In this document: piece by piece, positions 678 through 21,427 of the stretch
Position numbering within the stretch: the stretch's first letter is position 1
Layout: the number at the start of each line of letters is the position of its first letter
From: Perkinsela sp. CCAP 1560/9
Lineage: Eukaryota; Protista; Euglenozoa: Kinetoplastea
Length of the DNA stretch: 21,427 nt
Reading direction: 5' to 3'
NCBI GenBank assembly: GCA_965644495.1
Contig: CBFFSA010000083.1
Span: 1-21,427, forward strand
Notes under the pieces: generated by a model
Database searches by the model: none
The model's input: the letters and a program-made list of their open reading frames with translations, nothing else
Told to the model about the DNA's origin: nothing
Program-made: the position numbers and the translations under genes

Positions 678-851
678 CTGCGTGCTAAGTATGCTATTTG
701 TAAAACTGCAGATATGACCTAGGTTTGCACAAATCTATTTTATTTCGTACAGTGCTACGTATAGACCAGTTCAAACGAGCACGGGTTAACCACAATATCG
801 CTGGCTTACCAGCCACGCACACTCATGTGCTTTAGTTGCTAAAGTACGTAG
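678..851. mobile_element. Possible internally deleted IS remnant or MITE
   Basis: Imperfect terminal inverted repeats: CTGCGTGCT at 678 versus CTACGTACT (reverse complement ending at 851). No TSD and no ORF. Confidence 0.22.
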
Positions 852-1052
852 TTTTTAGAGGATTGGTAATTTTAAGGCAAGAAATTAGAAAAAATCGCCA
901 AAATTTAGCAAACTGAAATCAACGAATCGTCCCCCAAGCCCTCTGTATTACTAAGTGCTTTTTTTTTCAAGCTCAGATTTAGTTATAGAAACCACCATGG
1001 CCATCTAGGATTGGCCATCCTCGAATATGAAACTCCTTTTGTGCATAATACC

Positions 1053-1193
1053 CCAGCACCGAGTCCGACGTATTCATTGCAGGCTAGAGGCAATCAAGCG
1101 AGACTCAGTCAACCGATTCCGGTAATTTACGGCAGACACATTGTCTATCCTGATTTAGCCAGCACACCCTATGCACATTATGCCAACAATGAA
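1053..1193 (+). pseudogene. Phage tail-tip (TipJ/host-specificity J-like) gene, N-terminal fragment, 5'-truncated
   Basis: PAPSPTYSLQARGNQARLSQPIPVIYGRH is a typical J-like N-terminal motif. It joins in frame to the sequence after 2891 once the IS and one TSD are removed. Confidence 0.8.
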
Positions 1194-2886: not shown

Positions 2887-2888
2887 AT

Positions 2889-4565: not shown

Positions 4566-4576
4566 CCTTCTTACGT

Positions 4577-4933
4577 TTAATCAACATGTTTACGTTCACC
4601 CAGAGATTGAGCAATCATAGAAATAACCAATGTATTTAAACTAACACCATCTAATTTGGCTTGTTGAGCTAAACGTCTGTGTAATGATTTAGGCGCACGC
4701 TGCACCCATCTGCCGCTGGCGGTCGTTAAATCATTTGGACTTGGAATATCACGATTGGCTTCTTTAGCGGCTTCAATCCAGCACTGTACGGCATCGATTC
4801 CATTTTCAATGGTTTCCTCAACTGTTTCACCATCAGACATACAGCCAGGCAAATCAGGAAATTCAATCAAATATCCACCACCTTCTTCCTTGGAGAGATG
4901 GCGTACAGTAAACGGGTAATCAAGCTCTTTCAT
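4577..4933 (-). CDS. hicB: HicB-family antitoxin with C-terminal ribbon-helix-helix
   Basis: EEGGGYLIEFPDLPGCMSDGETVEE motif plus SGRWVQRAPKSLHRRL...GVSLN. Confidence 0.93.
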   Translation of the reverse strand: MKELDYPFTVRHLSKEEGGGYLIEFPDLPGCMSDGETVEETIENGIDAVQCWIEAAKEANRDIPSPNDLTTASGRWVQRAPKSLHRRLAQQAKLDGVSLNTLVISMIAQSLGERKHVD

Positions 4934-5175
4934 GACAAGGTATCTCCAATAAATTAATCAAGGCAACAAACTTTTTAATATAAACAGGCTTTACTGGCCG
5001 ATGAGCAGGGACACATAGCAATTCTATCCAAGCAGGATGGTTAAATACCACGTGACTACCTTTGCCCTTTCTCACATTAATACCATAATGCTTAGCCACT
5101 GTTTCCAGTTGCTCAATCCTCCAATCCCGAGGATTTTCGTTCATTTTTTTTGATGATTTTGCTAGCATTTCTCAT
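4920..5175 (-). CDS. hicA: HicA-family mRNA interferase toxin (start 5168, or 5175 if the T8 run carries an extra base)
   Basis: NPRDW...GKGSHVVF.H...VPAHRPVKPVYIKK motif. Overlaps the hicB start. Confidence 0.88.
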
Positions 5176-5183
5176 AATCATGC

Positions 5184-5205
5184 ATGATACTGCATATAGT
5201 ATCAT
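5184..5205. promoter_or_regulatory. Palindromic operator upstream of hicA (putative HicB site)
   Basis: ATGATACT-gcatat-AGTATCAT, a perfect 8-bp inverted repeat just upstream of the hicA start. Confidence 0.6.
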
Positions 5206-5246
5206 TTGTCCAGCTTTTTTATATCAATGACAGAGGAAACTTGCCC

Positions 5247-5549
5247 ATGACGAGCAATAACACTGAGCCATCTAACGATGGCATCACACTATCACAGGCA
5301 CAGCTTGACGAATTAATTGAAAGAGCCTCAACACGTGGCGCACGCAAAGCGCTTATTGAAATGGGTTTGATGGATGATACGGTCAATGACCTGCGTACAC
5401 TGCGAGGGCTAGCAAAAACCCTCAAGACGATGCAACACACGTTTGTGCAAACGATGGTGCGTTGGTTAACCATCGGCATGTTGGTGCTATTTTTCGCGGG
5501 GATTTCTGGGAAACTCGATTCACTATTTCACTTAAACAATAGCAAATAA
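5247..5549 (+). CDS. DUF6127-like small phage membrane protein
   Basis: GAGGA RBS. LDELIERASTRGARKALIEMGL...DLRTLRGL motif with a C-terminal TM helix. Located downstream of the tail gene. Confidence 0.7.
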   Translation: MTSNNTEPSNDGITLSQAQLDELIERASTRGARKALIEMGLMDDTVNDLRTLRGLAKTLKTMQHTFVQTMVRWLTIGMLVLFFAGISGKLDSLFHLNNSK

Positions 5550-5600
5550 ATAAGGAATAATAGGATGGTAACCTTACTAGCTACATTGGTGGGTTTTATA

Positions 5601-6164
5601 GTCCTCTAAATGGTTAAAACCCCCGTCTTCCAGACGGGAAAATCTTCAGATCTTGTTGTATGATGTGGGCATGGGCAACTATACGCACAGTCACCATACG
5701 GTCTACCACCATCGATACCACATTGTTTGGGTAACGAAGTATCGTTATAAAGTTTTGCAAGGTGAGCTACGTCTTCGCGTTCGTGCTCTTGTAGCGCAAG
5801 TAGCTGAGGAAATGGGGGTTGAAATACTCAATGGAGTATTGTCAACAGAGCACATCCATCTTTTTGTTAGTATTCCACCGCATATTTCAGTAAGTGATTT
5901 TGTTAAAAAGGCAAAGGGTCGTTCATCGCGCAAAATCCAGCAAGAGTTTCCTAGTATTCGCAAACGCTATTGGGGCAGGCATTTTTGGGGTCGTGGATAT
6001 TTTAGTAGCACAAGTGGCAATGTAACAGATGATATCATTAATGCTTACATTGATAATCATGTTGATGCTCATAAAGTGGATTATGAATCGAATATGTCTT
6101 TAGACTGATACCGGCTTCAGCCTAGATCTCCAACCCACCAACTTCTAGTTGGTGGTGGTTGAGT
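5601..6164 (+). mobile_element. IS200/IS605-family element (tnpA only)
   Basis: Subterminal hairpins CCCGTCT-tcc-AGACGGG (5622-5638) and CCACCAACT-tct-AGTTGGTGG (6135-6155). Inserted after TTTTATA with no TSD. Ends inferred from restoring the host frame, so +/- a few nt. Confidence 0.88.
5671..6108 (+). CDS. tnpA: Y1 HUH transposase TnpA
   Basis: YHIVWVTKYR, HIH (HUH), KGRSSR, FWGRGYF, and catalytic Tyr in INAYIDNH. Confidence 0.93.
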   Translation: MGNYTHSHHTVYHHRYHIVWVTKYRYKVLQGELRLRVRALVAQVAEEMGVEILNGVLSTEHIHLFVSIPPHISVSDFVKKAKGRSSRKIQQEFPSIRKRYWGRHFWGRGYFSSTSGNVTDDIINAYIDNHVDAHKVDYESNMSLD

Positions 6165-6592
6165 TCTTCAGCTTTTCCTGACATGTTAAAACTTGTCAGA
6201 GACAGAGCCGACAGGAAACATGAGCTAGCAATCTTGGACAGGCAGCTTGAAGCACAACGTGAAGGCCATGTTCAGCGTTTAGAAGAAATTGAAGTGCAAG
6301 CTGACATGGCTGAAAGCAAAGCACTGTATCAACATGCCAGTCTTCCAAGTCATGTAAAGTGGGTCGAAGCCTTGCGTGCATCGGTAAGGCCGGTAATAAC
6401 GTATGCGTTCTTTGCTTTGTTTGTCTTTGTTAAAGTGATGGCATTAATTGCATTACTGCAACAAGGGTTCACAATAGTAGACAGTGTGTTAACGATTTGG
6501 GACGATGAAACGCAAGCGTTATTTGCGGCAGTAATGGCCTTCTGGTTCGGGCAGCGCAGCGTCACAAAATCCCGTCAATTGCATCAGTGATG

Positions 6593-6649
6593 ACTGCTTA
6601 AATAAATAGGCATAAATGACTGGCTATGTTTTCGATAGTAAGCGTTAAT
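6593..6649 (+). repeat. 57-bp direct repeat, copy 1 (probable promoter/regulatory module)
   Basis: 52/57 identical to 7144-7200 by manual alignment. Lies ~35 bp upstream of ORF 6684. Confidence 0.85.
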
Positions 6650-6683
6650 GGTGATAAGAAAACATTTACTGGAGATTAAAGCC

Positions 6684-6995
6684 ATGAACACAAACGCAAA
6701 CACTTGCCACGTTAACATCACTATGATTGAAAATCCTGATGATAATTGCACACAAAGCGAAGTAAACGCCCTTATTACAGTATTTCGAGATGCACTCACC
6801 TGCATTGTTCCTACTCGCGCTAGCGAAGTGTGGATAAACCTAGGTGATTCTACCACAACACCCAAAAACGTTAAGGACTTTCAAGTGCGTTTAGGACGCT
6901 GTGAGCGGTTTGCCGGAAAACCGGAAAAATGGGCAGGGGAATTTACTACCGCCAGCAAGAAAGTTACCTTGATTGCACGAATAGATAATCACTAA
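6684..6995 (+). CDS. Hypothetical protein (103 aa)
   Basis: GGAG RBS at 6671, ATG at 6684, followed by a terminator. No recognised family. Confidence 0.65.
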   Translation: MNTNANTCHVNITMIENPDDNCTQSEVNALITVFRDALTCIVPTRASEVWINLGDSTTTPKNVKDFQVRLGRCERFAGKPEKWAGEFTTASKKVTLIARIDNH

Positions 6996-7013
6996 TTGTC
7001 TCTCCTTGAGTTT

Positions 7014-7053
7014 GGCAACAGGCGCCTAATGTTGGCGTTTGTTGCCCTTTTTT
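7014..7053 (+). terminator. Rho-independent terminator
   Basis: GGCAACAGGCGCC / GGCGTTTGTTGCC stem followed by C-T6. Confidence 0.75.
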
Positions 7054-7143
7054 ATTGGGTTAAACCCAATCTCCCCTACTCCATCACCAAGCCCTGTAAA
7101 GCCGATTATTCCAGCCACATTAATGGTCTGCACATCAGCGATA

Positions 7144-7200
7144 ACTGCTCGAATAAATAGGCATAATTGACTGGCTATGTCTTCGATAGTGAGCGTTAAT
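7144..7200 (+). repeat. 57-bp direct repeat, copy 2
   Basis: Matches 6593-6649. Ends 8 nt before the retroelement junction. Confidence 0.85.
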
Positions 7201-7208
7201 TACAACGT

Positions 7209-8505
7209 AAGGGTTTCCTGTCTCCATAGGTCCGAGTACTCTTGTTCCGCCCAACGCTGCATGCATTTATACGCATGTGAGGCATATGCCATGTGGCCTT
7301 TGCGGCCCCCTCGATGCGGAGCTGGTAAAACGCATTTGGGAAGCATGGCCAGAAGCGTCCATGCCTGTAAGGAGTTTTCAGAGACCGCGTTCCGAATGGC
7401 GGAGGAGAGGATTTCTTCCCAGATCTGGCGGCAACGATAAGGCACGTCTTTGCACGTACTCAGCTGAAGAGAGCAGACAGAAGGAAGAGGTGGGAGCTCA
7501 AAGTTGGTGTTCTCTGGTGTTGGTGCGGTGCTCACTTCGTTGGGTGGAGTAAGAAGTTCGGGAGAAAGGAGCGCAACGGTTTTCGTTCCTTTGCAGCTGT
7601 GTCTGTGCGATGATCGTTTGTGGTTGTCGTAGTGGCGTCCGCATGAGGTGCATAGAAAACGGCCTTCTCTGTACCACCATTCATTAGGGATGCTGTTACC
7701 GTGCCGGCATGCGACATGGTTATAGAAGGCTTGCCAGGATCCGCCATGCGACGGACTGCGCCATGAACATCCCTGGGCCGGGCACTCTCGGAGCGCGGCA
7801 GACTTTCCTTGGGACAATGAGTTGGGCTCAGCGAGGCTAACGCCAGCGTTTTCAATATTCTGGGTTTCGTGTCTTCTTCCTGGTTGCTCTTGAGATGGAC
7901 CCGGAATAAGTTCATAAGGATGCAAGAGTGAAGGTGTCTCTGGGTCTACCCGGTATCGGATGAGCTTATTTCTCCGTGGAGTAGGGGTTTTCTTGGAGTG
8001 ACCTTTAATGTCCTCATTGCTACGTGCTTGGGCGGATAGAGCAGTTTTGAGTGGTGTACTTAGATGCTGTGTAGCATTCAAAGCCTCTTTCGTCTTCTTC
8101 GCTGGCGTTACTTGCCTGATAACAGCGGAGTGTTGCATCTCTTCATTTTCGACCTCCGTGTGACCTGTGTCCGGTGTTTCATTAATCCCACCTACGATCG
8201 CGTTCGTTCGGCGGATCCAATCTTCAGGAATATTCTGAGGGATGGGGGTCGTGTAAAGGTCTTCATGGTATGTGCTCGTCCCCGTGAATAAATGTTCGTT
8301 TCCTTTAAATTGGTCCCAAGACCCCGGTCGGTGAGTTCTGCCATTAATTTCTAAGCATTTGTCGTCCGTCTCCATGGCTTCGGCTTCGTGGTCCGGATTT
8401 CCGCTGTTGTCGATTATGGGAGGAAGTGTGTCTGCGGGGGGGGTGATACCAGACATAAAAATTAACCCGTACCTCGGAAAGAGATGAAATAGAAAAAATT
8501 CAACA
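7209..8505 (-). mobile_element. Retrotransposon copy 1: 5' portion only (zinc fingers), 3'-truncated at the bacterial junction
   Basis: Matches the other copies down to ...LWRQETL, then reads into bacterial sequence (stop at 7200-7202). Confidence 0.93.
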
Positions 8506-11500
8506 TTTTTTTTTTTTTTTTCTTACTTACTTTCCTACTTACTTTACTTCGCCCTTATCAACTTCGCCCGCTTCTCTCCCTTATCTCCACCCCCCCAAAG
8601 AAACCATCCGTGACTTCCCGACTTCACCCGCTTCTTTCCCTCACTTCCCCCCCCCGAGCATCCATCCGCGCCTTCCAAACTTTGCCCTCCTCTTTCCCTC
8701 ACTTCCCCCCAGAAATCAATCCGCGCGTGCTCCACCCCTTCTTCCAGCAGTGCGCGCTTCGGACCGGGTCTCTCGACCTCTCCACGGCCTGGCTTGGGAA
8801 CCCTTCCCTTGTTATGCGGGAGGGCGCAGGCGCGGGCATGTGCCGACAGCGGCACGGTCACGAAGTTGGGTTTTGATCGCCGGATTCGGATGAATGTTCC
8901 GAATCCATACCTGTCTCACATTGGGGTACCTTGCTCGTGAAAGCGAGGCGTGAGGATAGGCACTGTCGGCTCGATCGGCCTCGGGCCGCTCTGGAGGCTA
9001 TTCCTCCAGAGTTGCGATGGGGTCTTCGGAAGGTGAACGAGAAACCATCATGCGCGCTTGAAAGCGCATAAGGGTTATGTTTAGTTCAGCGAAGATTCGG
9101 CTCGTTGCCTCACCTTCCGAAAGTAGACCCCCCGAGGCGTGCGAACACCTCTCACCGACTTTGCGGAGCACGGCTGAAGCGCTGGGGCTCCAGGCGCCAT
9201 AACTTTCGACAACCATGGCCGTAAAGTCGCATCCTGCTTCTACGGCTTCTCGACGCTGCTTGCCCTTCTCCATTGAGGAATAATGTTCGGCAAATGACCC
9301 CGCGGCAACCCAGCTAGCGTTTCGGACTTTGTCCGTATATTTTAATTGCTGAGCATGGGTGACCGCGAAGTAAAGCACAATGGGATTTCCAAGAAAAAGG
9401 CTGGGCAAGTATATGTCGCCAGGTCTGGTGAGGGCCCCGCCTGGGCCCCTGTTCCCGAGACTCTTTTCTCGTTGAGGGGCGAGGCGGGCTCGACTGCACA
9501 CGTCCGCGAACTGGTCCGTAACAGCGTTGTGCCTGGTCACAATACCATGGCCATGTTTGCAAGACAGTGCATGGTCCCCTTTGCTGTCAAGGGGGAGCGA
9601 GCATTTCGGCATGGGGCACGTGCTATCTTCATGGTAGATGTCCACGCCTAACCACCAACGGGCCAAGGTTCGGAATTGTGTGGGGGTAAAGGCGTGCCCA
9701 AGGTCTTTCGAAGGAGTCACAAAGGCCCAGCTGCTCGCTCCCGTGCCACACTGGGAGATCCACCTTGCACGGGTTCGTGCGTCAGTTGTCTCATATTCCT
9801 GGGAAAAGGCATGGGCTGCAATAGCATAACTGATTACCCGCTGGCGCGGGATCTTCCCTTTCGGCCACTGTGGGGGTAACATGTCCTGGCATTCTTCAGA
9901 ACCGTAGAGGGGAGTCGAGAGTGGGTAGGCATCCGTGGGTGTGTTGGCCGTGCGGGAAGTCGTACGAAGAATATATCCCGGAGGCTCGTCCGGGGGGTGA
10001 GGATCATTCCCTGGCGGAGGGCGCCTTCTCTTCCGGTAGGAGTACGGCGCGCTCAGGGCCTTCTCGCATGGGGCGTTGGGAGTTGTGAGAACACGACCTC
10101 GGGGATCGAGGAGAGCAGTGCCGGCCTTCTGATTGATGTCGAGGATGGCCTCCGAGAAACCTTCAGCGTCTGTGGGATCCCAGGAATCTGTGGCAGAGGC
10201 AAAGGCGACGGATGCAACGTAAGCCGCGGAGGCGTGGAGGGCTGCGGATCTCAGACCTAATCCACCATGACGCTTCAGTCGCTGTGCTTGAGATTGTGCT
10301 GACCTGTCAAGAGGACAGATGATTGCCTCTATAGCGGTCATGAGAAAGTCGTCTAAACGGGAGCAAAGGTGAATCAGGGACTGTGGGGGCGTGCTTCTCA
10401 TGGCATACACCATTTGACAGAACCCCGCACATTGACGAATTAGGGCAAGCGCGACCTGGGGGTCCTGAATGTTGGTGATGGCATCGAGGGTATCCTCGGC
10501 TGGTTCTAGGGCGTGAGAAAGAAGATAAGCAGAGCAGTGGTCGGCGGATCCTACAGGACTCCCTAGTATGTCAAAGTTCCCCTGCGAATTGATCTTCTCG
10601 TCGGGTATGTCTGGGAAGTAATCAGCCTGGTGGGCCGAGCTGGGGGAAGTAATAATTTCGCATTTCGACGTATTGAGATGCAAGCCCCATTGAGGTCCTA
10701 CTCGGGCGATCGTGTCTAGGGCGTCTCTAACTTCCTGCGCCTGGCCAACGAGGACGCCATCGTCGAGATACCAGAGTTGGGCGGGAATATCAGTTTGAAG
10801 GTTAATGGCTTCTGAGAGCTCCAGGGCCACTAACGAGAAGAGCAATGGTCCTAGGGGATCGCCCTGTTGTACTCCTTCCTCGGAGGAGATGAATCGGGCC
10901 CCGTAGGTAAGAGAGCTGGGGTCGGAATAGCACCAATTGATCCAAGGGAAGAGTTCCGGGAAATATTCCTGTACTAGTGGAAGGAAGGCAGCCCTGCTTA
11001 CGTTATTGAAAGCGTTACGTAGGTCCACTTTGCACATGACGAAGTTCGGGTTTTCCATATTGGACGACATGGCCAGGCGACACATGTGAATGACTCTTTC
11101 GGCCCCGGCTGGCGCTGCCACTCCGTACTGTTTGCCTTCAAAGAGCTCGCTCGCTTTGGGTCGGATTGCGTTGCATACGGCTTTGCTCGCTAATCGCCGA
11201 AGGGTTTCCTGTCTCCATAGGTCCGAGTACTCTTGTTCCGCCCAACGCTGCATGCATTTATACGCATGTGAGGCATATGCCATGTGGCCTTTGCGGCCCC
11301 CTCGATGCGGAGCTGGTAAAACGCATTTGGGAAGCATGGCCAGAAGCGTCCATGCCTGTAAGGAGTTTTCAGAGACCGCGTTCCGAATGGCGGAGGAGAG
11401 GATTTCTTCCCAGATCTGGCGGCAACGATAAGGCACGTCTTTGCACGTACTCAGCTGAAGAGAGCAGACAGAAGGAAGAGGTGGGAGCTCAAAGTTGGTG

Positions 11501-12496
11501 TTCTCTGGTGTTGGTGCGGTGCTCACTTCGTTGGGTGGAGTAAGAAGTTCGGGAGAAAGGAGCGCAACGGTTTTCGTTCCTTTGCAGCTGTGTCTGTGCG
11601 ATGATCGTTTGTGGTTGTCGTAGTGGCGTCCGCATGAGGTGCATAGAAAACGGCCTTCTCTGTACCACCATTCATTAGGGATGCTGTTACCGTGCCGGCA
11701 TGCGACATGGTTATAGAAGGCTTGCCAGGATCCGCCATGCGACGGACTGCGCCATGAACATCCCTGGGCCGGGCACTCTCGGAGCGCGGCAGACTTTCCT
11801 TGGGACAATGAGTTGGGCTCAGCGAGGCTAACGCCAGCGTTTTCAATATTCTGGGTTTCGTGTCTTCTTCCTGGTTGCTCTTGAGATGGACCCGGAATAA
11901 GTTCATAAGGATGCAAGAGTGAAGGTGTCTCTGGGTCTACCCGGTATCGGATGAGCTTATTTCTCCGTGGAGTAGGGGTTTTCTTGGAGTGACCTTTAAT
12001 GTCCTCATTGCTACGTGCTTGGGCGGATAGAGCAGTTTTGAGTGGTGTACTTAGATGCTGTGTAGCATTCAAAGCCTCTTTCGTCTTCTTCGCTGGCGTT
12101 ACTTGCCTGATAACAGCGGAGTGTTGCATCTCTTCATTTTCGACCTCCGTGTGACCTGTGTCCGGTGTTTCATTAATCCCACCTACGATCGCGTTCGTTC
12201 GGCGGATCCAATCTTCAGGAATATTCTGAGGGATGGGGGTCGTGTAAAGGTCTTCATGGTATGTGCTCGTCCCCGTGAATAAATGTTCGTTTCCTTTAAA
12301 TTGGTCCCAAGACCCCGGTCGGTGAGTTCTGCCATTAATTTCTAAGCATTTGTCGTCCGTCTCCATGGCTTCGGCTTCGTGGTCCGGATTTCCGCTGTTG
12401 TCGATTATGGGAGGAAGTGTGTCTGCGGGGGGGGTGATACCAGACATAAAAATTAACCCGTACCTCGGAAAGAGATGAAATAGAAAAAATTCAACA
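8506..12496 (-). mobile_element. Retrotransposon copy 2 (CRE-clade-like, RLE-type non-LTR)
   Basis: 49-nt leader, single ORF, ~480-nt 3' UTR, GTAA repeats, A16 tail (8506-8521). Confidence 0.92.
8998..12447 (-). CDS. 1149-aa zinc finger-RT-RLE polyprotein (probably defective)
   Basis: C2H2 finger CPAQGC..HVACRH and CCHC finger CTSC..HRHSC. RT motifs VDLRNAFN, GVQQGDPLGPLLF, WYLDD (YLDD at 10759-10770), GLHLNTSK, ILGSPVG and GGLGL. Knuckle CPMPKC..HALSC, then RHN, RPGDI and VVESYGAW. Confidence 0.92.
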   Translation of the reverse strand: MSGITPPADTLPPIIDNSGNPDHEAEAMETDDKCLEINGRTHRPGSWDQFKGNEHLFTGTSTYHEDLYTTPIPQNIPEDWIRRTNAIVGGINETPDTGHTEVENEEMQHSAVIRQVTPAKKTKEALNATQHLSTPLKTALSAQARSNEDIKGHSKKTPTPRRNKLIRYRVDPETPSLLHPYELIPGPSQEQPGRRHETQNIENAGVSLAEPNSLSQGKSAALRECPAQGCSWRSPSHGGSWQAFYNHVACRHGNSIPNEWWYREGRFLCTSCGRHYDNHKRSSHRHSCKGTKTVALLSPELLTPPNEVSTAPTPENTNFELPPLPSVCSLQLSTCKDVPYRCRQIWEEILSSAIRNAVSENSLQAWTLLAMLPKCVLPAPHRGGRKGHMAYASHAYKCMQRWAEQEYSDLWRQETLRRLASKAVCNAIRPKASELFEGKQYGVAAPAGAERVIHMCRLAMSSNMENPNFVMCKVDLRNAFNNVSRAAFLPLVQEYFPELFPWINWCYSDPSSLTYGARFISSEEGVQQGDPLGPLLFSLVALELSEAINLQTDIPAQLWYLDDGVLVGQAQEVRDALDTIARVGPQWGLHLNTSKCEIITSPSSAHQADYFPDIPDEKINSQGNFDILGSPVGSADHCSAYLLSHALEPAEDTLDAITNIQDPQVALALIRQCAGFCQMVYAMRSTPPQSLIHLCSRLDDFLMTAIEAIICPLDRSAQSQAQRLKRHGGLGLRSAALHASAAYVASVAFASATDSWDPTDAEGFSEAILDINQKAGTALLDPRGRVLTTPNAPCEKALSAPYSYRKRRRPPPGNDPHPPDEPPGYILRTTSRTANTPTDAYPLSTPLYGSEECQDMLPPQWPKGKIPRQRVISYAIAAHAFSQEYETTDARTRARWISQCGTGASSWAFVTPSKDLGHAFTPTQFRTLARWWLGVDIYHEDSTCPMPKCSLPLDSKGDHALSCKHGHGIVTRHNAVTDQFADVCSRARLAPQREKSLGNRGPGGALTRPGDIYLPSLFLGNPIVLYFAVTHAQQLKYTDKVRNASWVAAGSFAEHYSSMEKGKQRREAVEAGCDFTAMVVESYGAWSPSASAVLRKVGERCSHASGGLLSEGEATSRIFAELNITLMRFQARMMVSRSPSEDPIATLEE

Positions 12497-15400
12497 TTTT
12501 TTTTTTTTTTTTTCTTACTTACTTTCCTACTTACTTTACTTCGCCCTTATCAACTTCGCCCGCTTCTCTCCCTTATCTCCACCCCCCCAAAGAAACCATC
12601 CGTGACTTCCCGACTTCACCCGCTTCTTTCCCTCACTTCCCCCCCCCCGAGCATCCATCCGCGCCTTCCAAACTTTGCCCTCCTCTTTCCCTCACTTCCC
12701 CCCAGAAATCAATCCGCGCGTGCTCCACCCCTTCTTCCAGCAGTGCGCGCTTCGGACCGGGTCTCTCGACCTCTCCACGGCCTGGCTTGGGAACCCTTCC
12801 CTTGTTATGCGGGAGGGCGCAGGCGCGGGCATGTGCCGACAGCGGCACGGTCACGAAGTTGGGTTTTGATCGCCGGATTCGGATGAATGTTCCGAATCCA
12901 TACCTGTCTCACATTGGGGTACCTTGCTCGTGAAAGCGAGGCGTGAGGATAGGCACTGTCGGCTCGATCGGCCTCGGGCCGCTCTGGAGGCTATTCCTCC
13001 AGAGTTGCGATGGGGTCTTCGGAAGGTGAACGAGAAACCATCATGCGCGCTTGAAAGCGCATAAGGGTTATGTTTAGTTCAGCGAAGATTCGGCTCGTTG
13101 CCTCACCTTCCGAAAGTAGACCCCCCGAGGCGTGCGAACACCTCTCACCGACTTTGCGGAGCACGGCTGAAGCGCTGGGGCTCCAGGCGCCATAACTTTC
13201 GACAACCATGGCCGTAAAGTCGCATCCTGCTTCTACGGCTTCTCGACGCTGCTTGCCCTTCTCCATTGAGGAATAATGTTCGGCAAATGACCCCGCGGCA
13301 ACCCAGCTAGCGTTTCGGACTTTGTCCGTATATTTTAATTGCTGAGCATGGGTGACCGCGAAGTAAAGCACAATGGGATTTCCAAGAAAAAGGCTGGGCA
13401 AGTATATGTCGCCAGGTCTGGTGAGGGCCCCGCCTGGGCCCCTGTTCCCGAGACTCTTTTCTCGTTGAGGGGCGAGGCGGGCTCGACTGCACACGTCCGC
13501 GAACTGGTCCGTAACAGCGTTGTGCCTGGTCACAATACCATGGCCATGTTTGCAAGACAGTGCATGGTCCCCTTTGCTGTCAAGGGGGAGCGAGCATTTC
13601 GGCATGGGGCACGTGCTATCTTCATGGTAGATGTCCACGCCTAACCACCAACGGGCCAAGGTTCGGAATTGTGTGGGGGTAAAGGCGTGCCCAAGGTCTT
13701 TCGAAGGAGTCACAAAGGCCCAGCTGCTCGCTCCCGTGCCACACTGGGAGATCCACCTTGCACGGGTTCGTGCGTCAGTTGTCTCATATTCCTGGGAAAA
13801 GGCATGGGCTGCAATAGCATAACTGATTACCCGCTGGCGCGGGATCTTCCCTTTCGGCCACTGTGGGGGTAACATGTCCTGGCATTCTTCAGAACCGTAG
13901 AGGGGAGTCGAGAGTGGGTAGGCATCCGTGGGTGTGTTGGCCGTGCGGGAAGTCGTACGAAGAATATATCCCGGAGGCTCGTCCGGGGGGTGAGGATCAT
14001 TCCCTGGCGGAGGGCGCCTTCTCTTCCGGTAGGAGTACGGCGCGCTCAGGGCCTTCTCGCATGGGGCGTTGGGAGTTGTGAGAACACGACCTCGGGGATC
14101 GAGGAGAGCAGTGCCGGCCTTCTGATTGATGTCGAGGATGGCCTCCGAGAAACCTTCAGCGTCTGTGGGATCCCAGGAATCTGTGGCAGAGGCAAAGGCG
14201 ACGGATGCAACGTAAGCCGTGGAGGCGTGGAGGGCTGCGGATCTCAGACCTAATCCACCATGACGCTTCAGTCGCTGTGCTTGAGATTGTGCTGACCTGT
14301 CAAGAGGACAGATGATTGCCTCTATAGCGGTCATGAGAAAGTCGTCTAAACGGGAGCAAAGGTGAATCAGGGACTGTGGGGGCGTGCTTCTCATGGCATA
14401 CACCATTTGACAGAACCCCGCACATTGACGAATTAGGGCAAGCGCGACCTGGGGGTCCTGAATGTTGGTGATGGCATCGAGGGTATCCTCGGCTGGTTCT
14501 AGGGCGTGAGAAAGAAGATAAGCAGAGCAGTGGTCGGCGGATCCTACAGGACTCCCTAGTATGTCAAAGTTCCCCTGCGAATTGATCTTCTCGTCGGGTA
14601 TGTCTGGGAAGTAATCAGCCTGGTGGGCCGAGCTGGGGGAAGTAATAATTTCGCATTTCGACGTATTGAGATGCAAGCCCCATTGAGGTCCTACTCGGGC
14701 GATCGTGTCTAGGGCGTCTCTAACTTCCTGCGCCTGGCCAACGAGGACGCCATCGTCGAGATACCAGAGTTGGGCGGGAATATCAGTTTGAAGGTTAATG
14801 GCTTCTGAGAGCTCCAGGGCCACTAACGAGAAGAGCAATGGTCCTAGGGGATCGCCCTGTTGTACTCCTTCCTCGGAGGAGATGAATCGGGCCCCGTAGG
14901 TAAGAGAGCTGGGGTCGGAATAGCACCAATTGATCCAAGGGAAGAGTTCCGGGAAATATTCCTGTACTAGTGGAAGGAAGGCAGCCCTGCTTACGTTATT
15001 GAAAGCGTTACGTAGGTCCACTTTGCACATGACGAAGTTCGGGTTTTCCATATTGGACGACATGGCCAGGCGACACATGTGAATGACTCTTTCGGCCCCG
15101 GCTGGCGCTGCCACTCCGTACTGTTTGCCTTCAAAGAGCTCGCTCGCTTTGGGTCGGATTGCGTTGCATACGGCTTTGCTCGCTAATCGCCGAAGGGTTT
15201 CCTGTCTCCATAGGTCCGAGTACTCTTGTTCCGCCCAACGCTGCATGCATTTATACGCATGTGAGGCATATGCCATGTGGCCTTTGCGGCCCCCTCGATG
15301 CGGAGCTGGTAAAACGCATTTGGGAAGCATGGCCAGAAGCGTCCATGCCTGTAAGGAGTTTTCAGAGACCGCGTTCCGAATGGCGGAGGAGAGGATTTCT

Positions 15401-16489
15401 TCCCAGATCTGGCGGCAACGATAAGGCACGTCTTTGCACGTACTCAGCTGAAGAGAGCAGACAGAAGGAAGAGGTGGGAGCTCAAAGTTGGTGTTCTCTG
15501 GTGTTGGTGCGGTGCTCACTTCGTTGGGTGGAGTAAGAAGTTCGGGAGAAAGGAGCGCAACGGTTTTCGTTCCTTTGCAGCTGTGTCTGTGCGATGATCG
15601 TTTGTGGTTGTCGTAGTGGCGTCCGCATGAGGTGCATAGAAAACGGCCTTCTCTGTACCACCATTCATTAGGGATGCTGTTACCGTGCCGGCATGCGACA
15701 TGGTTATAGAAGGCTTGCCAGGATCCGCCATGCGACGGACTGCGCCATGAACATCCCTGGGCCGGGCACTCTCGGAGCGCGGCAGACTTTCCTTGGGACA
15801 ATGAGTTGGGCTCAGCGAGGCTAACGCCAGCGTTTTCAATATTCTGGGTTTCGTGTCTTCTTCCTGGTTGCTCTTGAGATGGACCCGGAATAAGTTCATA
15901 AGGATGCAAGAGTGAAGGTGTCTCTGGGTCTACCCGGTATCGGATGAGCTTATTTCTCCGTGGAGTAGGGGTTTTCTTGGAGTGACCTTTAATGTCCTCA
16001 TTGCTACGTGCTTGGGAGGATAGAGCAGTTTTGAGTGGTGTACTTAGATGCTGTGTAGCATTCAAAGCCTCTTTCGTCTTCTTCGCTGGCGTTACTTGCC
16101 TGATAACAGCGGAGTGTTGCATCTCTTCATTTTCGACCTCCGTGTGACCTGTGTCCGGTGTTTCATTAATCCCACCTACGATCGCGTTCGTTCGGCGGAT
16201 CCAATCTTCAGGAATATTCTGAGGGATGGGGGTCGTGTAAAGGTCTTCATGGTATGTGCTCGTCCCCGTGATTAAATGTTCGTTTCCTTTAAATTGGTCC
16301 CAAGACCCCGGTCGGTGAGTTCTGCCATTAATTTCTAAGCATTTGTCGTCCGTCTCCATGGCTTCGGCTTCGTGGTCCGGATTTCCGCTGTTGTCGATTA
16401 TGGGAGGAAGTGTGTCTGCGGGGGGGATGATACCAGACATAAAAATTAACCCGTACCTCGGAAAGAGATGAAATAGAAAAAATACAACA
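12497..16489 (-). mobile_element. Retrotransposon copy 3
   Basis: A17 tail at 12497-12513. Near-identical to copy 2. Confidence 0.92.
12991..16440 (-). CDS. 1149-aa zinc finger-RT-RLE polyprotein
   Basis: As copy 2, with four substitutions (T>I, F>I, A>S, A>T). Confidence 0.92.
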   Translation of the reverse strand: MSGIIPPADTLPPIIDNSGNPDHEAEAMETDDKCLEINGRTHRPGSWDQFKGNEHLITGTSTYHEDLYTTPIPQNIPEDWIRRTNAIVGGINETPDTGHTEVENEEMQHSAVIRQVTPAKKTKEALNATQHLSTPLKTALSSQARSNEDIKGHSKKTPTPRRNKLIRYRVDPETPSLLHPYELIPGPSQEQPGRRHETQNIENAGVSLAEPNSLSQGKSAALRECPAQGCSWRSPSHGGSWQAFYNHVACRHGNSIPNEWWYREGRFLCTSCGRHYDNHKRSSHRHSCKGTKTVALLSPELLTPPNEVSTAPTPENTNFELPPLPSVCSLQLSTCKDVPYRCRQIWEEILSSAIRNAVSENSLQAWTLLAMLPKCVLPAPHRGGRKGHMAYASHAYKCMQRWAEQEYSDLWRQETLRRLASKAVCNAIRPKASELFEGKQYGVAAPAGAERVIHMCRLAMSSNMENPNFVMCKVDLRNAFNNVSRAAFLPLVQEYFPELFPWINWCYSDPSSLTYGARFISSEEGVQQGDPLGPLLFSLVALELSEAINLQTDIPAQLWYLDDGVLVGQAQEVRDALDTIARVGPQWGLHLNTSKCEIITSPSSAHQADYFPDIPDEKINSQGNFDILGSPVGSADHCSAYLLSHALEPAEDTLDAITNIQDPQVALALIRQCAGFCQMVYAMRSTPPQSLIHLCSRLDDFLMTAIEAIICPLDRSAQSQAQRLKRHGGLGLRSAALHASTAYVASVAFASATDSWDPTDAEGFSEAILDINQKAGTALLDPRGRVLTTPNAPCEKALSAPYSYRKRRRPPPGNDPHPPDEPPGYILRTTSRTANTPTDAYPLSTPLYGSEECQDMLPPQWPKGKIPRQRVISYAIAAHAFSQEYETTDARTRARWISQCGTGASSWAFVTPSKDLGHAFTPTQFRTLARWWLGVDIYHEDSTCPMPKCSLPLDSKGDHALSCKHGHGIVTRHNAVTDQFADVCSRARLAPQREKSLGNRGPGGALTRPGDIYLPSLFLGNPIVLYFAVTHAQQLKYTDKVRNASWVAAGSFAEHYSSMEKGKQRREAVEAGCDFTAMVVESYGAWSPSASAVLRKVGERCSHASGGLLSEGEATSRIFAELNITLMRFQARMMVSRSPSEDPIATLEE

Positions 16490-19400
16490 TTTTTTTTTTT
16501 TTTTTTTCTTACTTACTTTCTTTACTTACTTACTTCTTACTTACTTACTTTACTTCGCCCTTATCAACTTCGCCCGCTTCTCTCCCTTATCTCCACCCCC
16601 CCAAAGAAACCATCCGTGACTTCCCGACTTCACCCGCTTCTTTCCCTCACTTCCCCCCCCCGAGCATCCATCCGCGCCTTCCAAACTTTGCCCTCCTCTT
16701 TCCCTCACTTCCCCCCAGAAATCAATCCGCGCGTGCTCCACCCCTTCTTCCAGCAGTGCGCGCTTCGGACCGGGTCTCTCGACCTCTCCACGGCCTGGCT
16801 TGGGAACCCTTCCCTTGTTATGCGGGAGGGCTCAGGCGCGGGCATGTGCCGACAGCGGCACGGTCACGAAGTTGGGTTTTGATCGCCGGACTCGGATGAA
16901 TGTTCCGAATCCATACCTGTCTCACATTGGGGTACCTTGCTCGTGAAAGCGAGGCGTGAGGATAGGCACTGTCGGCTCGATCGGCCTCGGGCCGCTCTGG
17001 AGGCTATTCCTCCAGAGTTGCGATGGGGTCTTCGGAAGGTGAACGAGAAACCATCATGCGCGCTTGAAAGCGCATAAGGGTTATGTTTAGTTCAGCGAAG
17101 ATTCGGCTTGTTGCCTCAACTTCCGAAAGTAGACCCCCCGAGGCGTGCGAACACCTCTCACCGACTTTGCGGAGCACGGCTGAAGCGCTGGGGCTCCAGG
17201 CGCCATAACTTTCGACAACCATGGCCGTAAAGTCGCATCCTGCTTCTACGGCTTCTCGACGCTGCTTGCCCTTCTCCATTGAGGAATAATGTTCGGCAAA
17301 TGACCCCGCGGCAACCCAGCTAGCGTTTCGGACTTTGTCCGTATATTTTAATTGCTGAGCATGGGTGACCGCGAAGTAAAGCACAATGGGATTTCCAAGA
17401 AAAAGGCTGGGCAAGTATATGTCGCCAGGTCTGGTGAGGGCCCCGCCTGGGCCCCTGTTCCCGAGACTCTTTTCTCGTTGAGGGGCGAGGCGGGCTCGAC
17501 TGCACACGTCCGCGAACTGGTCCGTAACAGCGTTGTGCCTGGTCACAATACCATGGCCATGTTTGCAAGACAGTGCATGGTCCCCTTTGCTGTCAAGGGG
17601 GAGCGAGCATTTCGGCATGGGGCACGTGCTATCTTCATGGTAGATGTCCACGCCTAACCACCAACGGGCCAAGGTTCGGAATTGTGTGGGGGTAAAGGCG
17701 TGCCCAAGGTCTTTCGAAGGAGTCACAAAGGCCCAGCTGCTCGCTCCCGTGCCACACTGGGAGATCCACCTTGCACGGGTTCGTGCGTCAGTTGTCTCAT
17801 ATTCCTGGGAAAAGGCATGGGCTGCAATAGCATAACTGATTACCCGCTGGCGCGGGATCTTCCCTTTCGGCCACTGTGGGGGTAACATGTCCTGGCATTC
17901 TTCAGAACCGTAGAGGGGAGTCGAGAGTGGGTAGGCATCCGTGGGTGTGTTGGCCGTGCGGGAAGTCGTACGAAGAATATATCCCGGAGGCTCGTCCGGG
18001 GGGTGAGGATCATTCCCTGGCGGAGGGCGCCTTCTCTTCCGGTAGGAGTACGGCGCGCTCAGGGCCTTCTCGCATGGGGCGTTGGGAGTTGTGAGAACAC
18101 GACCTCGGGGATCGAGGAGAGCAGTGCCGGCCTTCTGATTGATGTCGAGGATGGCCTCCGAGAAACCTTCAGCGTCTGTGGGATCCCAGGAATCTGTGGC
18201 AGAGGCAAAGGCGACGGATGCAACGTAAGCCGCGGAGGCGTGGAGGGCTGCGGATCTCAGACCTAATCCACCATGACGCTTCAGTCGCTGTGCTTGAGAT
18301 TGTGCTGACCTGTCAAGAGGACAGATGATTGCCTCTATAGCGGTCATGAGAAAGTCGTCTAAACGGGAGCAAAGGTGAATCAGGGACTGTGGGGGCGTGC
18401 TTCTCATGGCATACACCATTTGACAGAACCCCGCACATTGACGAATTAGGGCAAGCGCGACCTGGGGGTCCTGAATGTTGGTGATGGCATCGAGGGTATC
18501 CTCGGCTGGTTCTAGGGCGTGAGAAAGAAGATAAGCAGAGCAGTGGTCGGCGGATCCTACAGGACTCCCTAGTATGTCAAAGTTCCCCTGCGAATTGATC
18601 TTCTCGTCGGGTATGTCTGGGAAGTAATCAGCCTGGTGGGCCGAGCTGGGGGAAGTAATAATTTCGCATTTCGACGTATTGAGATGCAAGCCCCATTGAG
18701 GTCCTACTCGGGCGATCGTGTCTAGGGCGTCTCTAACTTCCTGCGCCTGGCCAACGAGGACGCCATCGTCGAGATACCAGAGTTGGGCGGGAATATCAGT
18801 TTGAAGGTTAATGGCTTCTGAGAGCTCCAGGGCCACTAACGAGAAGAGCAATGGTCCTAGGGGATCGCCCTGTTGTACTCCTTCCTCGGAGGAGATGAAT
18901 CGGGCCCCGTAGGTAAGAGAGCTGGGGTCGGAATAGCACCAATTGATCCAAGGGAAGAGTTCCGGGAAATATTCCTGTACTAGTGGAAGGAAGGCAGCCC
19001 TGCTTACGTTATTGAAAGCGTTACGTAGGTCCACTTTGCACATGACGAAGTTCGGGTTTTCCATATTGGACGACATGGCCAGGCGACACATGTGAATGAC
19101 TCTTTCGGCCCCGGCTGGCGCTGCCACTCCGTACTGTTTGCCTTCAAAGAGCTCGCTCGCTTTGGGTCGGATTGCGTTGCATACGGCTTTGCTCGCTAAT
19201 CGCCGAAGGGTTTCCTGTCTCCATAGGTCCGAGTACTCTTGTTCCGCCCAACGCTGCATGCATTTATACGCATGTGAGGCATATGCCATGTGGCCTTTGC
19301 GGCCCCCTCGATGCGGAGCTGGTAAAACGCATTTGGGAAGCATGGCCAGAAGCGTCCATGCCTGTAAGGAGTTTTCAGAGACCGCGTTCCGAATGGCGGA

Positions 19401-20502
19401 GGAGAGGATTTCTTCCCAGATCTGGCGGCAACGATAAGGCACGTCTTTGCACGTACTCAGCTGAAGAGAGCAGACAGAAGGAAGAGGTGGGAGCTCAAAG
19501 TTGGTGTTCTCTGGTGTTGGTGCGGTGCTCACTTCGTTGGGTGGAGTAAGAAGTTCGGGAGAAAGGAGCGCAACGGTTTTCGTTCCTTTGCAGCTGTGTC
19601 TGTGCGATGATCGTTTGTGGTTGTCGTAGTGGCGTCCGCATGAGGTGCATAGAAAACGGCCTTCTCTGTACCACCATTCATTAGGGATGCTGTTACCGTG
19701 CCGGCATGCGACATGGTTATAGAAGGCTTGCCAGGATCCGCCATGCGACGGACTGCGCCATGAACATCCCTGGGCCGGGCACTCTCGGAGCTCGGCAGAC
19801 TTTCCTTGGGACAATGAGTTGGGCTCAGCGAGGCTAACGCCAGCGTTTTCAATATTCTGGGTTTCGTGTCTTCTTCCTGGTTGCTCTTGAGATGGACCCG
19901 GAATAAGTTCATAAGGATGCAAGAGTGAAGGTGTCTCTGGGTCTACCCGGTATCGGATGAGCTTATTTCTCCGTGGAGTAGGGGTTTTCTTGGAGTGACC
20001 TTTAATGTCCTCATTGCTACGTGCTTGGGCGGATAGAGCAGTTTTGAGTGGTGTACTTAGATGCTGTGTAGCATTCAAAGCCTCTTTCGTCTTCTTCGCT
20101 GGCGTTACTTGCCTGATAACAGCGGAGTGTTGCATCTCTTCATTTTCGACCTCCGTGTGACCTGTGTCCGGTGTTTCATTAATCCCACCTACGATCGCGT
20201 TCGTTCGGCGGATCCAATCTTCAGGAATATTCTGAGGGATGGGGGTCGTGTAAAGGTCTTCATGGTATGTGCTCGTCCCCGTGAATAAATGTTCGTTTCC
20301 TTTAAATTGGTCCCAAGACCCCGGTCGGTGAGTTCTGCCATTAATTTCTAAGCATTTGTCGTCCGTCTCCATGGCTTCGGCTTCGTGGTCCGGATTTCCG
20401 CTGTTGTCGATTATGGGAGGAAGTGTGTCTGCGGGGGGGGTGATACCAGACATAAAAATTAACCCGTACCTCGGAAAGAGATGAAATAGAAAAAATTCAA
20501 CA
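16490..20502 (-). mobile_element. Retrotransposon copy 4
   Basis: A18 tail at 16490-16507, with a GTAA-repeat tract about 20 bp longer than in other copies. Confidence 0.92.
17004..20453 (-). CDS. 1149-aa zinc finger-RT-RLE polyprotein
   Basis: As copy 2, with A>E and G>V substitutions. Confidence 0.92.
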   Translation of the reverse strand: MSGITPPADTLPPIIDNSGNPDHEAEAMETDDKCLEINGRTHRPGSWDQFKGNEHLFTGTSTYHEDLYTTPIPQNIPEDWIRRTNAIVGGINETPDTGHTEVENEEMQHSAVIRQVTPAKKTKEALNATQHLSTPLKTALSAQARSNEDIKGHSKKTPTPRRNKLIRYRVDPETPSLLHPYELIPGPSQEQPGRRHETQNIENAGVSLAEPNSLSQGKSAELRECPAQGCSWRSPSHGGSWQAFYNHVACRHGNSIPNEWWYREGRFLCTSCGRHYDNHKRSSHRHSCKGTKTVALLSPELLTPPNEVSTAPTPENTNFELPPLPSVCSLQLSTCKDVPYRCRQIWEEILSSAIRNAVSENSLQAWTLLAMLPKCVLPAPHRGGRKGHMAYASHAYKCMQRWAEQEYSDLWRQETLRRLASKAVCNAIRPKASELFEGKQYGVAAPAGAERVIHMCRLAMSSNMENPNFVMCKVDLRNAFNNVSRAAFLPLVQEYFPELFPWINWCYSDPSSLTYGARFISSEEGVQQGDPLGPLLFSLVALELSEAINLQTDIPAQLWYLDDGVLVGQAQEVRDALDTIARVGPQWGLHLNTSKCEIITSPSSAHQADYFPDIPDEKINSQGNFDILGSPVGSADHCSAYLLSHALEPAEDTLDAITNIQDPQVALALIRQCAGFCQMVYAMRSTPPQSLIHLCSRLDDFLMTAIEAIICPLDRSAQSQAQRLKRHGGLGLRSAALHASAAYVASVAFASATDSWDPTDAEGFSEAILDINQKAGTALLDPRGRVLTTPNAPCEKALSAPYSYRKRRRPPPGNDPHPPDEPPGYILRTTSRTANTPTDAYPLSTPLYGSEECQDMLPPQWPKGKIPRQRVISYAIAAHAFSQEYETTDARTRARWISQCGTGASSWAFVTPSKDLGHAFTPTQFRTLARWWLGVDIYHEDSTCPMPKCSLPLDSKGDHALSCKHGHGIVTRHNAVTDQFADVCSRARLAPQREKSLGNRGPGGALTRPGDIYLPSLFLGNPIVLYFAVTHAQQLKYTDKVRNASWVAAGSFAEHYSSMEKGKQRREAVEAGCDFTAMVVESYGAWSPSASAVLRKVGERCSHASGGLLSEVEATSRIFAELNITLMRFQARMMVSRSPSEDPIATLEE

Positions 20503-21427
20503 TTTTTTTTTTTTTTTTCTTACTTACTTTCCTACTTACTTTACTTCGCCCTTATCAACTTCGCCCGCTTCTCTCCCTTATCTCCACCCCCCCAAAGAAA
20601 CCATCCGTGACTTCCCGACTTCACCCGCTTCTTTCCCTCACTTCCCCCCCCCGAGCATCCATCCGCGCCTTCCAAACTTTGCCCTCCTCTTTCCCTCACT
20701 TCCCCCCAGAAATCAATCCGCGCGTGCTCCACCCCTTCTTCCAGCAGTGCGCGCTTCGGACCGGGTCTCTCGACCTCTCCACGGCCTGGCTTGGGAACCC
20801 TTCCCTTGTTATGCGGGAGGGCGCAGGCGCGGGCATGTGCCGACAGCGGCACGGTCACGAAGTTGGGTTTTGATCGCCGGATTCGGATGAATGTTCCGAA
20901 TCCATACCTGTCTCACATTGGGGTACCTTGCTCGTGAAAGCGAGGCGTGAGGATAGGCACTGTCGGCTCGATCGGCCTCGGGCCGCTCTGGAGGCTATTC
21001 CTCCAGAGTTGCGATGGGGTCTTCGGAAGGTGAACGAGAAACCATCATGCGCGCTTGAAAGCGCATAAGGGTTATGTTTAGTTCAGCGAAGATTCGGCTC
21101 GTTGCCTCACCTTCCGAAAGTAGACCCCCCGAGGCGTGCGAACACCTCTCACCGACTTTGCGGAGCACGGCTGAAGCGCTGGGGCTCCAGGCGCCATAAC
21201 TTTCGACAACCATGGCCGTAAAGTCGCATCCTGCTTCTACGGCTTCTCGACGCTGCTTGCCCTTCTCCATTGAGGAATAATGTTCGGCAAATGACCCCGC
21301 GGCAACCCAGCTAGCGTTTCGGACTTTGTCCGTATATTTTAATTGCTGAGCATGGGTGACCGCGAAGTAAAGCACAATGGGATTTCCAAGAAAAAGGCTG
21401 GGCAAGTATATGTCGCCAGGTCTGGTG
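20503..21427 (-). mobile_element. Retrotransposon copy 5, 3' end (continues beyond the window)
   Basis: A16 tail at 20503-20518, 3' UTR, and RLE-coding C-terminus with stop at 20995. Confidence 0.92.

What the first reader, a model, noticed from the sequence alone, without database searches (positions are those of the whole stretch)
7144..21427. Eukaryotic-type non-LTR retrotransposon array directly joined to a bacterial prophage
Seen: an abrupt switch at 7208/7209 from AT-rich bacterial DNA (group II intron, IS elements, hicAB, phage tail genes) to more than 14 kb of a poly(A)-tailed ZnF-RT-RLE element. Known: RLE non-LTR elements (CRE1/SLACS/CZAR, Cnl1, MoTeR) are eukaryotic and are not bacterial RT classes. 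Inference, three options: (a) a host retrotransposon captured and amplified in an intracellular bacterium or its prophage; (b) endosymbiont DNA integrated into a host chromosome; (c) a chimeric contig. Options (a) and (b) would be notable, but (c) is a serious possibility.
Basis: partly seen in the sequence, partly recalled or inferred. Interest (0 to 1): 0.9.

Follow-up and report, generated by a model that had tools for sequence, protein, structure and literature searches.

The report
Likely chimera: symbiont plus host retrotransposons
Both halves are real DNA, a piece of a prophage-rich bacterial chromosome and a tandem array of damaged eukaryotic-type retrotransposons, but the join between them is most likely a sequencing or assembly artefact, because the bacterial chromosome continues normally at that point.

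Summary
The switch at 7209-7210 is real in the window, but the join is most likely an artefact (about 85%). Window 1-7210 matches the single-contig 2.45-Mb gammaproteobacterial genome G001, differing only by three one-base homopolymer indels. G001 carries on into phage genes there and has no match to the element. In contigs of four runs (one study) holding both halves, bacterial records continue as in G001. No listed record crosses the join: depth sums leave no room for one in three runs, and the fourth is unresolved. Bacterium-to-element depth varies from about 3 to over 26, so they are not one replicon. The right part is 3 full and 2 partial copies of a CRE-like RLE non-LTR element whose named relatives are all eukaryotic. 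The copies are likely dead: a 168-residue RT deletion and a D-to-Y change in the endonuclease motif. The joined copy lacks its 3' end and poly(A), so the join is not a retrotransposition product. A recent insertion of symbiont DNA into a host chromosome is not excluded (about 11%), since these contigs drop rare variants. The join lies oddly close to the element's deletion point.

The parts
1..7210 (+). Bacterial chromosome fragment, equal to G001:C1:1345820-1353028 apart from three one-base homopolymer indels (near 783, 2673 and 5144)
   Evidence: the extra base at 5144 is 'left out' in contigs of all 4 runs
1..487 (-). 5' part of a group II intron (domains D1-D4 at 214-448) with a broken RT start; repeated elsewhere in G001
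1195..2886 (+). IS1380-type element (DDE_Tnp_1_4, below cut-off) splitting the tail gene; bounds inferred from matches to uninterrupted paralogues
2887..4565 (+). Phage tail tip protein J, C-terminal part (N-terminal piece at 1045-1194)
   Evidence: paralogue matches phrog_31 central tail fiber J
4577..5168 (-). hicB (4577-4933) and hicA; the hicA start is shifted in the window by the extra base at 5144
5184..5549 (+). DUF6127 phage protein
5595..6164 (+). IS200-like element, transposase at 5653-6108
6159..6590 (+). Phage membrane protein of unknown function (paralogue matches phrog_6637); a holin role is inferred only from its place before the endolysin
7133..7200 (.).
7209..7210 (.). Join between bacterial and element DNA; 2-nt overlap, no poly(A), no further homology beyond chance; likely an artefact
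7209..8505 (-). Partial copy u0: only the 5' 1.3 kb of the element, cut 8-13 nt past the internal deletion point
8506..12496 (-). Full unit u1; ORF 8998-12447 (1,149 aa; zinc-finger-like motifs, RT with a 168-aa deletion, C-terminal Cys/His knuckle, RLE with D-to-Y), 49-nt 5' leader, 476-nt 3' region with a 58-bp repeat, A16
12497..16489 (-). Full unit u2; ORF 12991-16440, same lesions
16490..20502 (-). Full unit u3; ORF 17004-20453, same lesions, longer simple repeat before the poly(A)
20503..21427 (-). Partial copy u4: 3' end of the element, cut by the window edge

Best explanation
The window is most likely a chimera of two separate real molecules: 7.2 kb of an intact gammaproteobacterial chromosome and 14.2 kb of a tandem array of damaged CRE-like retrotransposons that likely belongs to a eukaryotic host. 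Shown: each half continues in its own sequence elsewhere, and the two vary independently in depth. Inferred: the join arose in the library (two fragments ligated and read as one long read, then kept as a poorly corrected contig) or in the assembler at a branch point. The bacterium is very deep in these samples, so a stray host fragment would most often be joined to its DNA. Also inferred: the array grew by recombination or by help from intact sister copies, since its own copies cannot be expected to transpose.
For: (1) G001 matches 1-7210 with 0 substitutions and 3 homopolymer indels, then continues into phage ORFs, an endolysin and a 2,996-aa gene. It has no DNA or protein match to the element, nor do the 30 other genomes searched with alignment A2. 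(2) In 4 of 4 runs, records end at 7210 with loose letters equal to G001's continuation. In X3 and X4 all depth at 7222-7247 is one record (232; 111.2) that starts at 7209 with 21 unlike letters, so nothing bridges. In X1 the depth sums fit the same picture. Records at depth 8-9 are kept beside depth near 10,000 in X3 and X4, so weak branches can survive. (3) Depth of a bacterial record over the element record is about 2.6 in X1, 26 in X2 and higher in X3 and X4. (4) Two of the three indels break frames that are open in G001, and one is absent from all four runs: the pattern of an uncorrected read. (5) The joined copy is 3'-truncated and has no poly(A). (6) The same deleted, D-to-Y form occurs in another 23,767-bp ENA contig, and the full-length form on a 59-kb contig. 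(7) Precedent: 89 interspecies chimeric HiFi reads without breakpoint homology, 8 of 8 tested negative by PCR (PMC13288022, passages); multi-domain chimeric contigs (10.1101/2025.04.22.649783, passages).
Against: No raw long reads were available. Logan contigs drop rare variants, so a junction in few cells or at low host depth could be lost. In X2 only 8 of 20 laid records are listed and the depth sums cannot exclude a bridge. The four runs are one study and may include the window's own source; G001 may come from the same material. The join lies 8-13 nt from the element's deletion point (about 0.7% by chance, computed after the fact), which random ligation does not explain. Whether the window is a whole contig could not be shown. 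The excess of indels on the bacterial side (3 in 7.2 kb against 0 frameshifts in 12.0 kb of element ORF) is weak, p about 0.05 (my estimate).
Confidence: 0.85

Rival explanations
1. Very recent insertion of symbiont DNA into a host chromosome: a double-strand break inside a dead array copy was mended by end joining with a bacterial fragment, leaving 2 nt of microhomology.
For: Microhomology of 2 nt and no retrotransposition marks fit end joining. The nearness to the deletion point could mean a break-prone site. The bacterium looks host-associated (giant WD40/Sel1/OTU proteins). Near-identical Wolbachia insertions laced with host retrotransposons are known (PMC4299567, passages). Bacterial depth would hide the inserted copy.
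Against: No bridging record in X1, X3 or X4, although depth 8-9 records survive in X3 and X4. The only differences from G001 are homopolymer indels, with no substitution in 7.2 kb. No host single-copy DNA is in the window.
Confidence: 0.11
2. A host array fragment was captured into the bacterial prophage end in a rare subpopulation of the bacterium, by illegitimate recombination.
For: Precedent of a 685-bp L1 fragment beside a prophage end in Neisseria gonorrhoeae, confirmed by PCR and without target-site duplication (PMC3042738, abstract and passages). The join lies near the prophage end that, in G001, carries eukaryote-like genes.
Against: G001 is uninterrupted. Element depth is 3 to over 26 times below bacterial depth instead of several times above. 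No CRE-like match in 50,697 phage or 72,556 plasmid records or in IMG/VR. A 14-kb array of near-identical repeats would be unstable in a recA-positive genome (recA present; instability is my inference).
Confidence: 0.03
3. The element retrotransposed into the bacterial prophage and amplified there by its own activity.
For: Only the adjacency and three uninterrupted ORFs.
Against: The end facing the bacterial DNA is a mid-ORF break of a 3'-truncated copy, with no poly(A). All copies lack 168 residues of the RT N-terminal region and have Y for the second RLE aspartate, which is D in 12 of 12 other aligned proteins. G001 lacks the element.
Confidence: 0.01

Closest known systems
CRE-clade RLE non-LTR retrotransposons (CRE1/CRE2, SLACS, CZAR; related MoTeR)
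   Same: Single ORF with N-terminal Cys/His motifs, RT, C-terminal Cys/His knuckle and PD..D-type endonuclease; internal repeat region; poly(A) tail (features as in PMC12278014 passages). RT region 41% identical to a Diplonema protein annotated as SLACS-like, and 41-45% to sponge proteins.
   Different: These copies are internally deleted and RLE-mutant, lie head to tail with no target gene or target-site duplication seen between them, and fall in an unnamed 19-member clade of ENA proteins. No Repbase CRE sequence was available for a tree.
Interspecies chimeric HiFi reads and multi-domain chimeric contigs (PMC13288022; 10.1101/2025.04.22.649783)
   Same: Sudden shift in GC, depth and taxonomy; no homology at the breakpoint; no recurrence in other data.
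   Different: Raw-read clipping and PCR could not be checked here; the join lies close to an internal branch point of the repeat.
Nuclear Wolbachia transfers with host retrotransposons in Drosophila ananassae (PMC4299567)
   Same: Near-identical symbiont DNA adjoining host retroelements.
   Different: There the transfer is multi-copy, seen as read coverage and located by FISH; here no bridging record was found and the element end is not an insertion end.
nL1 fragment in Neisseria gonorrhoeae (PMC3042738)
   Same: A eukaryotic LINE 5' fragment next to a prophage end, with no target-site duplication.
   Different: That case is 685 bp, flanked by bacterial DNA on both sides, found in about 11% of isolates and confirmed by PCR; here it is over 14 kb, one-sided, and absent from the matching genome.

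Membership tests
RLE (R2-group) non-LTR retrotransposon | Single ORF with an RT domain | tested here: met
   RVT_1 E 1.2e-15; the only PDB matches of full-length P0052 are RT-like and R2 retrotransposon proteins (5 sequences)
RLE (R2-group) non-LTR retrotransposon | C-terminal Cys/His knuckle followed by a PD..D endonuclease motif | tested here: met
   C1112, C1117, H1127, C1131, R1140-H1141, P1177, D1179 and D1194 of P0052 are near-invariant in 19 homologues; in the window's copies the second D is Y
RLE (R2-group) non-LTR retrotransposon | 3' poly(A) or simple-repeat tail | tested here: met
   A16-A18 after a short simple repeat in 4 of 4 copies that have a 3' end
CRE clade | RT phylogeny grouping with CRE1/SLACS/CZAR against R2, NeSL, R4 and HERO | tested here: inconclusive
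   Quick tree of 56 rows without reference CRE or outgroup sequences; the only link is 41% identity to a SLACS-annotated Diplonema protein
CRE clade | Site-specific insertion (spliced-leader genes or similar) with target-site duplication | tested here: inconclusive
   Poly(A) abuts the next 5' end; Rfam finds no RNA gene in the array; no natural outer boundary lies in the window
Autonomous (active) element | Complete RT N-terminal motifs and intact endonuclease acidic residues | tested here: not met
   168-residue deletion against P0052 and D-to-Y in all copies that cover these sites
Retrotransposition (TPRT) junction | Element 3' end with poly(A) joined to the target, usually with a target-site duplication | tested here: not met
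   The join is a mid-ORF break of a copy holding only its 5' 1.3 kb
Genuine physical junction | Independent molecules spanning the join | tested here: inconclusive
   No bridging record listed in 4 runs, excluded by depth in X3 and X4 and by arithmetic in X1, open in X2; contigs only, rare variants dropped
Element resident in the bacterial chromosome | Present in the matching genome and at depth at least equal to the bacterium | tested here: not met
Intact prophage | Head, tail and lysis modules in order at this locus | tested here: not met
   In G001 a 2,548-aa gene and an intron fragment stand where tape measure and minor tail genes lie in sister copies, and tail J is split by an IS

The most novel reading that the evidence does not exclude
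A rare subpopulation of a host-associated gammaproteobacterium has captured more than 14 kb of its host's tandem CRE-like retrotransposon array at a prophage end, a eukaryote-to-bacterium transfer some 20 times larger than the Neisseria L1 case.
Probability: 0.03. Interest if true: 0.85.

Novelty: not a real feature. Interest (0 to 1): 0.1.

Why it matters
If real, capture of a host LINE array by a symbiont's prophage would be a rare eukaryote-to-bacterium transfer, and a fresh symbiont insertion into a host array would catch such a transfer in the act. The evidence points to an artefact, so the value is a caution: read-length contigs from host-associated samples can fuse domains, and CRE-like ORFs already sit in prokaryote genome bins (54 loci), apparently as host DNA. 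The genuine lead is beside the finding: G001 holds about a dozen related prophage regions, most of those examined ending in a giant eukaryote-like protein.

Tried and rejected
The window's own assembly is not held, so the far end of the array could not be followed. Exact look-up of 10 window proteins, including the junction-spanning 418-aa ORF: 7 not in the collection, 3 found only on the 2,447,832-bp contig; this says nothing on recurrence, as start-codon choice can hide a protein. A 35-nt junction pattern found nothing in JGI metagenome or IMG/VR contigs; uninformative, since no relative of the element was found in either. No RNA holder listed. Extended homology or a hairpin at the join: local alignment scores 19 and 21 against shuffled means of 19.7 and 20.0; longest inverted arm 6 nt; rejected. 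CRE-like loci in GTDB as support for bacterial residence: 30 of 54 lie on contigs under 10 kb and 21 of the other 24 come from two MAGs. For 17 of 54 loci I measured ORF cover: 0.12-0.58 on 13 large-contig loci against 0.81 for a G001 stretch, and 0.77-0.97 on 4 short GC-rich ones. Of 29 flanking ORFs from 14 loci, 4 matched Pfam, all transposon or retroelement families; rejected as probable host DNA in bins, though 25 ORFs had no match. The careful tree did not finish; the quick tree was used, with P0037 dropped for short coverage. The protein atlas did not complete. The host species was not identified. Three look-ups of earlier scan findings returned nothing. One literature search on non-LTR elements in bacterial genomes listed the Neisseria paper as the only such case among 9 titles; this is not a full survey. 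Supplements were not read.
Full report
VERDICT. Both halves are real, but the join is most likely an artefact (0.85). A recent insertion of symbiont DNA into a host chromosome stays possible (0.11). Residence in the bacterium is unlikely (0.04 in all).

OBSERVATION. GC is 43.3% up to 7208 and 54.4% after it. Self-alignment shows that 7209-21427 is a head-to-tail array with a period near 4 kb and 99.4-99.95% identity. It has three full units (3,991, 3,993 and 4,013 bp) and two partial ones, each 3' end carrying A16-A18 on the minus strand. The left part holds group II intron domains, an IS1380-type transposase, tail protein J, hicAB, DUF6127 and an IS200 transposase.

THE LEFT HALF HAS AN INTACT HOME. 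Window 1-7210 matches G001:C1:1345820-1353028, a single contig of 2,447,832 bp rated 97% complete. There are no substitutions and three one-base indels, all in homopolymers. Two of them break frames that are open in G001. The one at 5144 is absent from contigs of all four runs laid. After 7210 G001 continues with small phage ORFs, an endolysin and a 2,996-aa gene. It has no match to the element as DNA or protein; the same family search finds its own three RTs, so the search can ring there. None of 31 genomes (G001 and 30 relatives) matches the element alignment. Named RecA neighbours are mostly Gammaproteobacteria, at 82-88% identity.

THE RIGHT HALF IS A DAMAGED EUKARYOTIC-TYPE ELEMENT. The RT region of the full-length form finds 927 proteins at E 1e-10 or better. 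Among the 120 listed, those with an organism name are sponges and Diplonema, one annotated as a SLACS protein; the first search added Symbiodinium and Effrenium. The closest relatives are unnamed ENA proteins on contigs of 6-185 kb, forming a 19-member clade in a quick tree, which suggests one host with many sister families (inference). A full-length version exists: P0052, 1,317 aa, about 98-99% identical over the shared parts. Against it, the window's 1,149-aa ORF lacks 168 residues spanning the RT N-terminal motifs. It also has Y in place of the second endonuclease aspartate, which is D in 12 of 12 other aligned proteins. That these lesions abolish activity follows from general knowledge of RT and PD-(D/E)xK enzymes and was not tested. 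The same deleted form lies on another contig of 23,767 bp, so the array is not an invention of this contig.

THE JOIN IS NOT A RETROTRANSPOSITION PRODUCT. These elements insert by target-primed reverse transcription from their 3' end, and CRE elements make target-site duplications (PMC3636483 and PMC12278014, passages). The copy at the join holds only the 5' 1.3 kb and breaks off mid-ORF. The overlap with bacterial DNA is 2 nt, and wider similarity is at chance level.

RUN EVIDENCE. Four runs of one study hold 68-85% of the sampled words of 3200-11190. All are Logan contigs, not reads. In 4 of 4, bacterial records stop matching at 7210 and go on with G001's letters. In X3 and X4 the whole depth at 7222-7247 (232 and 111.2) is a single record that starts at 7209 with 21 unlike letters, so no record bridges. 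In X1, 8 of 13 records are listed. The residual depths are 8.3 at 7196-7208, 9.0 at 7209-7221 and 30.4 at 7222-7247. They fit a depth-109 bacterial record ending at 7196, a deleted-form branch starting at 7209 and a full-length branch at 7222; this reading is my arithmetic. X2 cannot be resolved this way. Records at depth 8-9 survive beside depth near 10,000 in X3 and X4, so weak branches are not always pruned. Single bacterial records against the element record give 73 to 28 in X1, 7,261 to 281 in X2, 13,183 to 232 in X3 and 12,061 to 111 in X4; the last two may sum paralogues, and the tool warns that depth is no copy number. Still, an array inside the bacterial chromosome should be deeper than the chromosome, not shallower.

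MECHANISM. Shown: two molecules with separate continuations and unlinked depth. Inferred: a ligation chimera read as one long read and kept with read-level errors, or a join made by the assembler. In a fungal two-species HiFi set, 89 interspecies chimeric reads lacked breakpoint homology and 8 of 8 tested failed PCR (PMC13288022, passages). Long-read assemblers also make multi-domain chimeras marked by shifts in GC, coverage and taxonomy (10.1101/2025.04.22.649783, passages). ENA contigs of 12-41 kb also carry tail proteins of G001's family, one 99.7% identical to a G001 copy, which fits leftover read-length contigs but could also be excised phage.

AGAINST THIS READING. No raw reads were seen, rare junctions can be dropped, and the runs are one study that may include the source. 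The join lies 8-13 nt from the element's deletion point and 10 nt past a 68-bp bacterial repeat. The first coincidence has about 0.7% chance, computed after the fact. It fits an assembler join at a branch point or a real break-prone site, and not random ligation. Near-identical symbiont insertions with host retrotransposons do exist (PMC4299567, passages), as does an L1 fragment beside a gonococcal prophage (PMC3042738, abstract and passages).

ARE SUCH ELEMENTS EVER BACTERIAL? No match was found in 50,697 phage records, 72,556 plasmid records or IMG/VR. GTDB genomes gave 54 loci: 30 on contigs under 10 kb, and 21 of the other 24 from two MAGs. Flanks of the 13 large-contig loci examined are gene-poor (ORF cover 0.12-0.58). 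The 4 of 29 flanking ORFs with a Pfam match are transposon or retroelement proteins. These look like host DNA in bins.

'PROPHAGE'. G001 has 11 terminase matches over the cut-off, 12 portal matches (two of them halves of one split gene) and at least 13 tail J paralogues. At this locus only the distal end remains.

SCORE. The junction is probably not a real feature; the element is a new, damaged member of a known kind. Interest 0.1.

Noticed in passing
G001:C1, loci L011, L012, L014-L025 (e.g. L012:3611-12601, L011:4809-12455): The 2.45-Mb genome holds about 11-13 related lambda-like prophage regions (11 terminases over cut-off). In 9 of the 12 fetched regions with an endolysin, it is followed by a member of one family of very large proteins; the 2,996-aa one has WD40, Sel1 and OTU-like domains. 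This recalls the eukaryotic association module of phage WO (PMC5062602, search listing only) in an unnamed gammaproteobacterium, and is a better lead than the junction.
   Followed up: partly
window 7209-7222: The bacterial join lies 8-13 nt from the breakpoint of the array's 168-codon deletion, which is also a graph branch point in runs X1 and X2. Unexplained.
   Followed up: partly
window 7209-21427; proteins P0003, P0052-P0057: A doubly damaged copy (RT deletion plus endonuclease D-to-Y) is tandemly amplified with open frames. Runs differ: X1 and X2 branch at 7222 as if both forms are present, while X3 and X4 show one record starting at 7209, so the arrays may differ between samples.
   Followed up: partly
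proteins P0004-P0018, P0058-P0096: Sister families at 49-62% identity share contig lengths (9,488; 12,831; 17,563 bp), suggesting mixed clusters of different CRE-like families at a common host site.
   Followed up: no
L028-L081: 54 CRE-like loci sit in GTDB prokaryote genomes; one Dehalococcoidia MAG holds 18 and one Nitrospirales MAG holds 5, on gene-poor contigs up to 2.6 Mb, probably host DNA binned as bacterial.
   Followed up: partly
window 6582-6649 and 7133-7200: A 68-bp repeat with about 10 matches in G001 lies at the distal prophage ends, flanking a variable small ORF; run contigs show skips and returns between the copies, as if it bounds exchangeable gene cassettes.
   Followed up: no
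window 1995-2058: The IS1380-type transposase is split into two frames at the same place in G001, so this frameshift is natural and not a read error.
   Followed up: no
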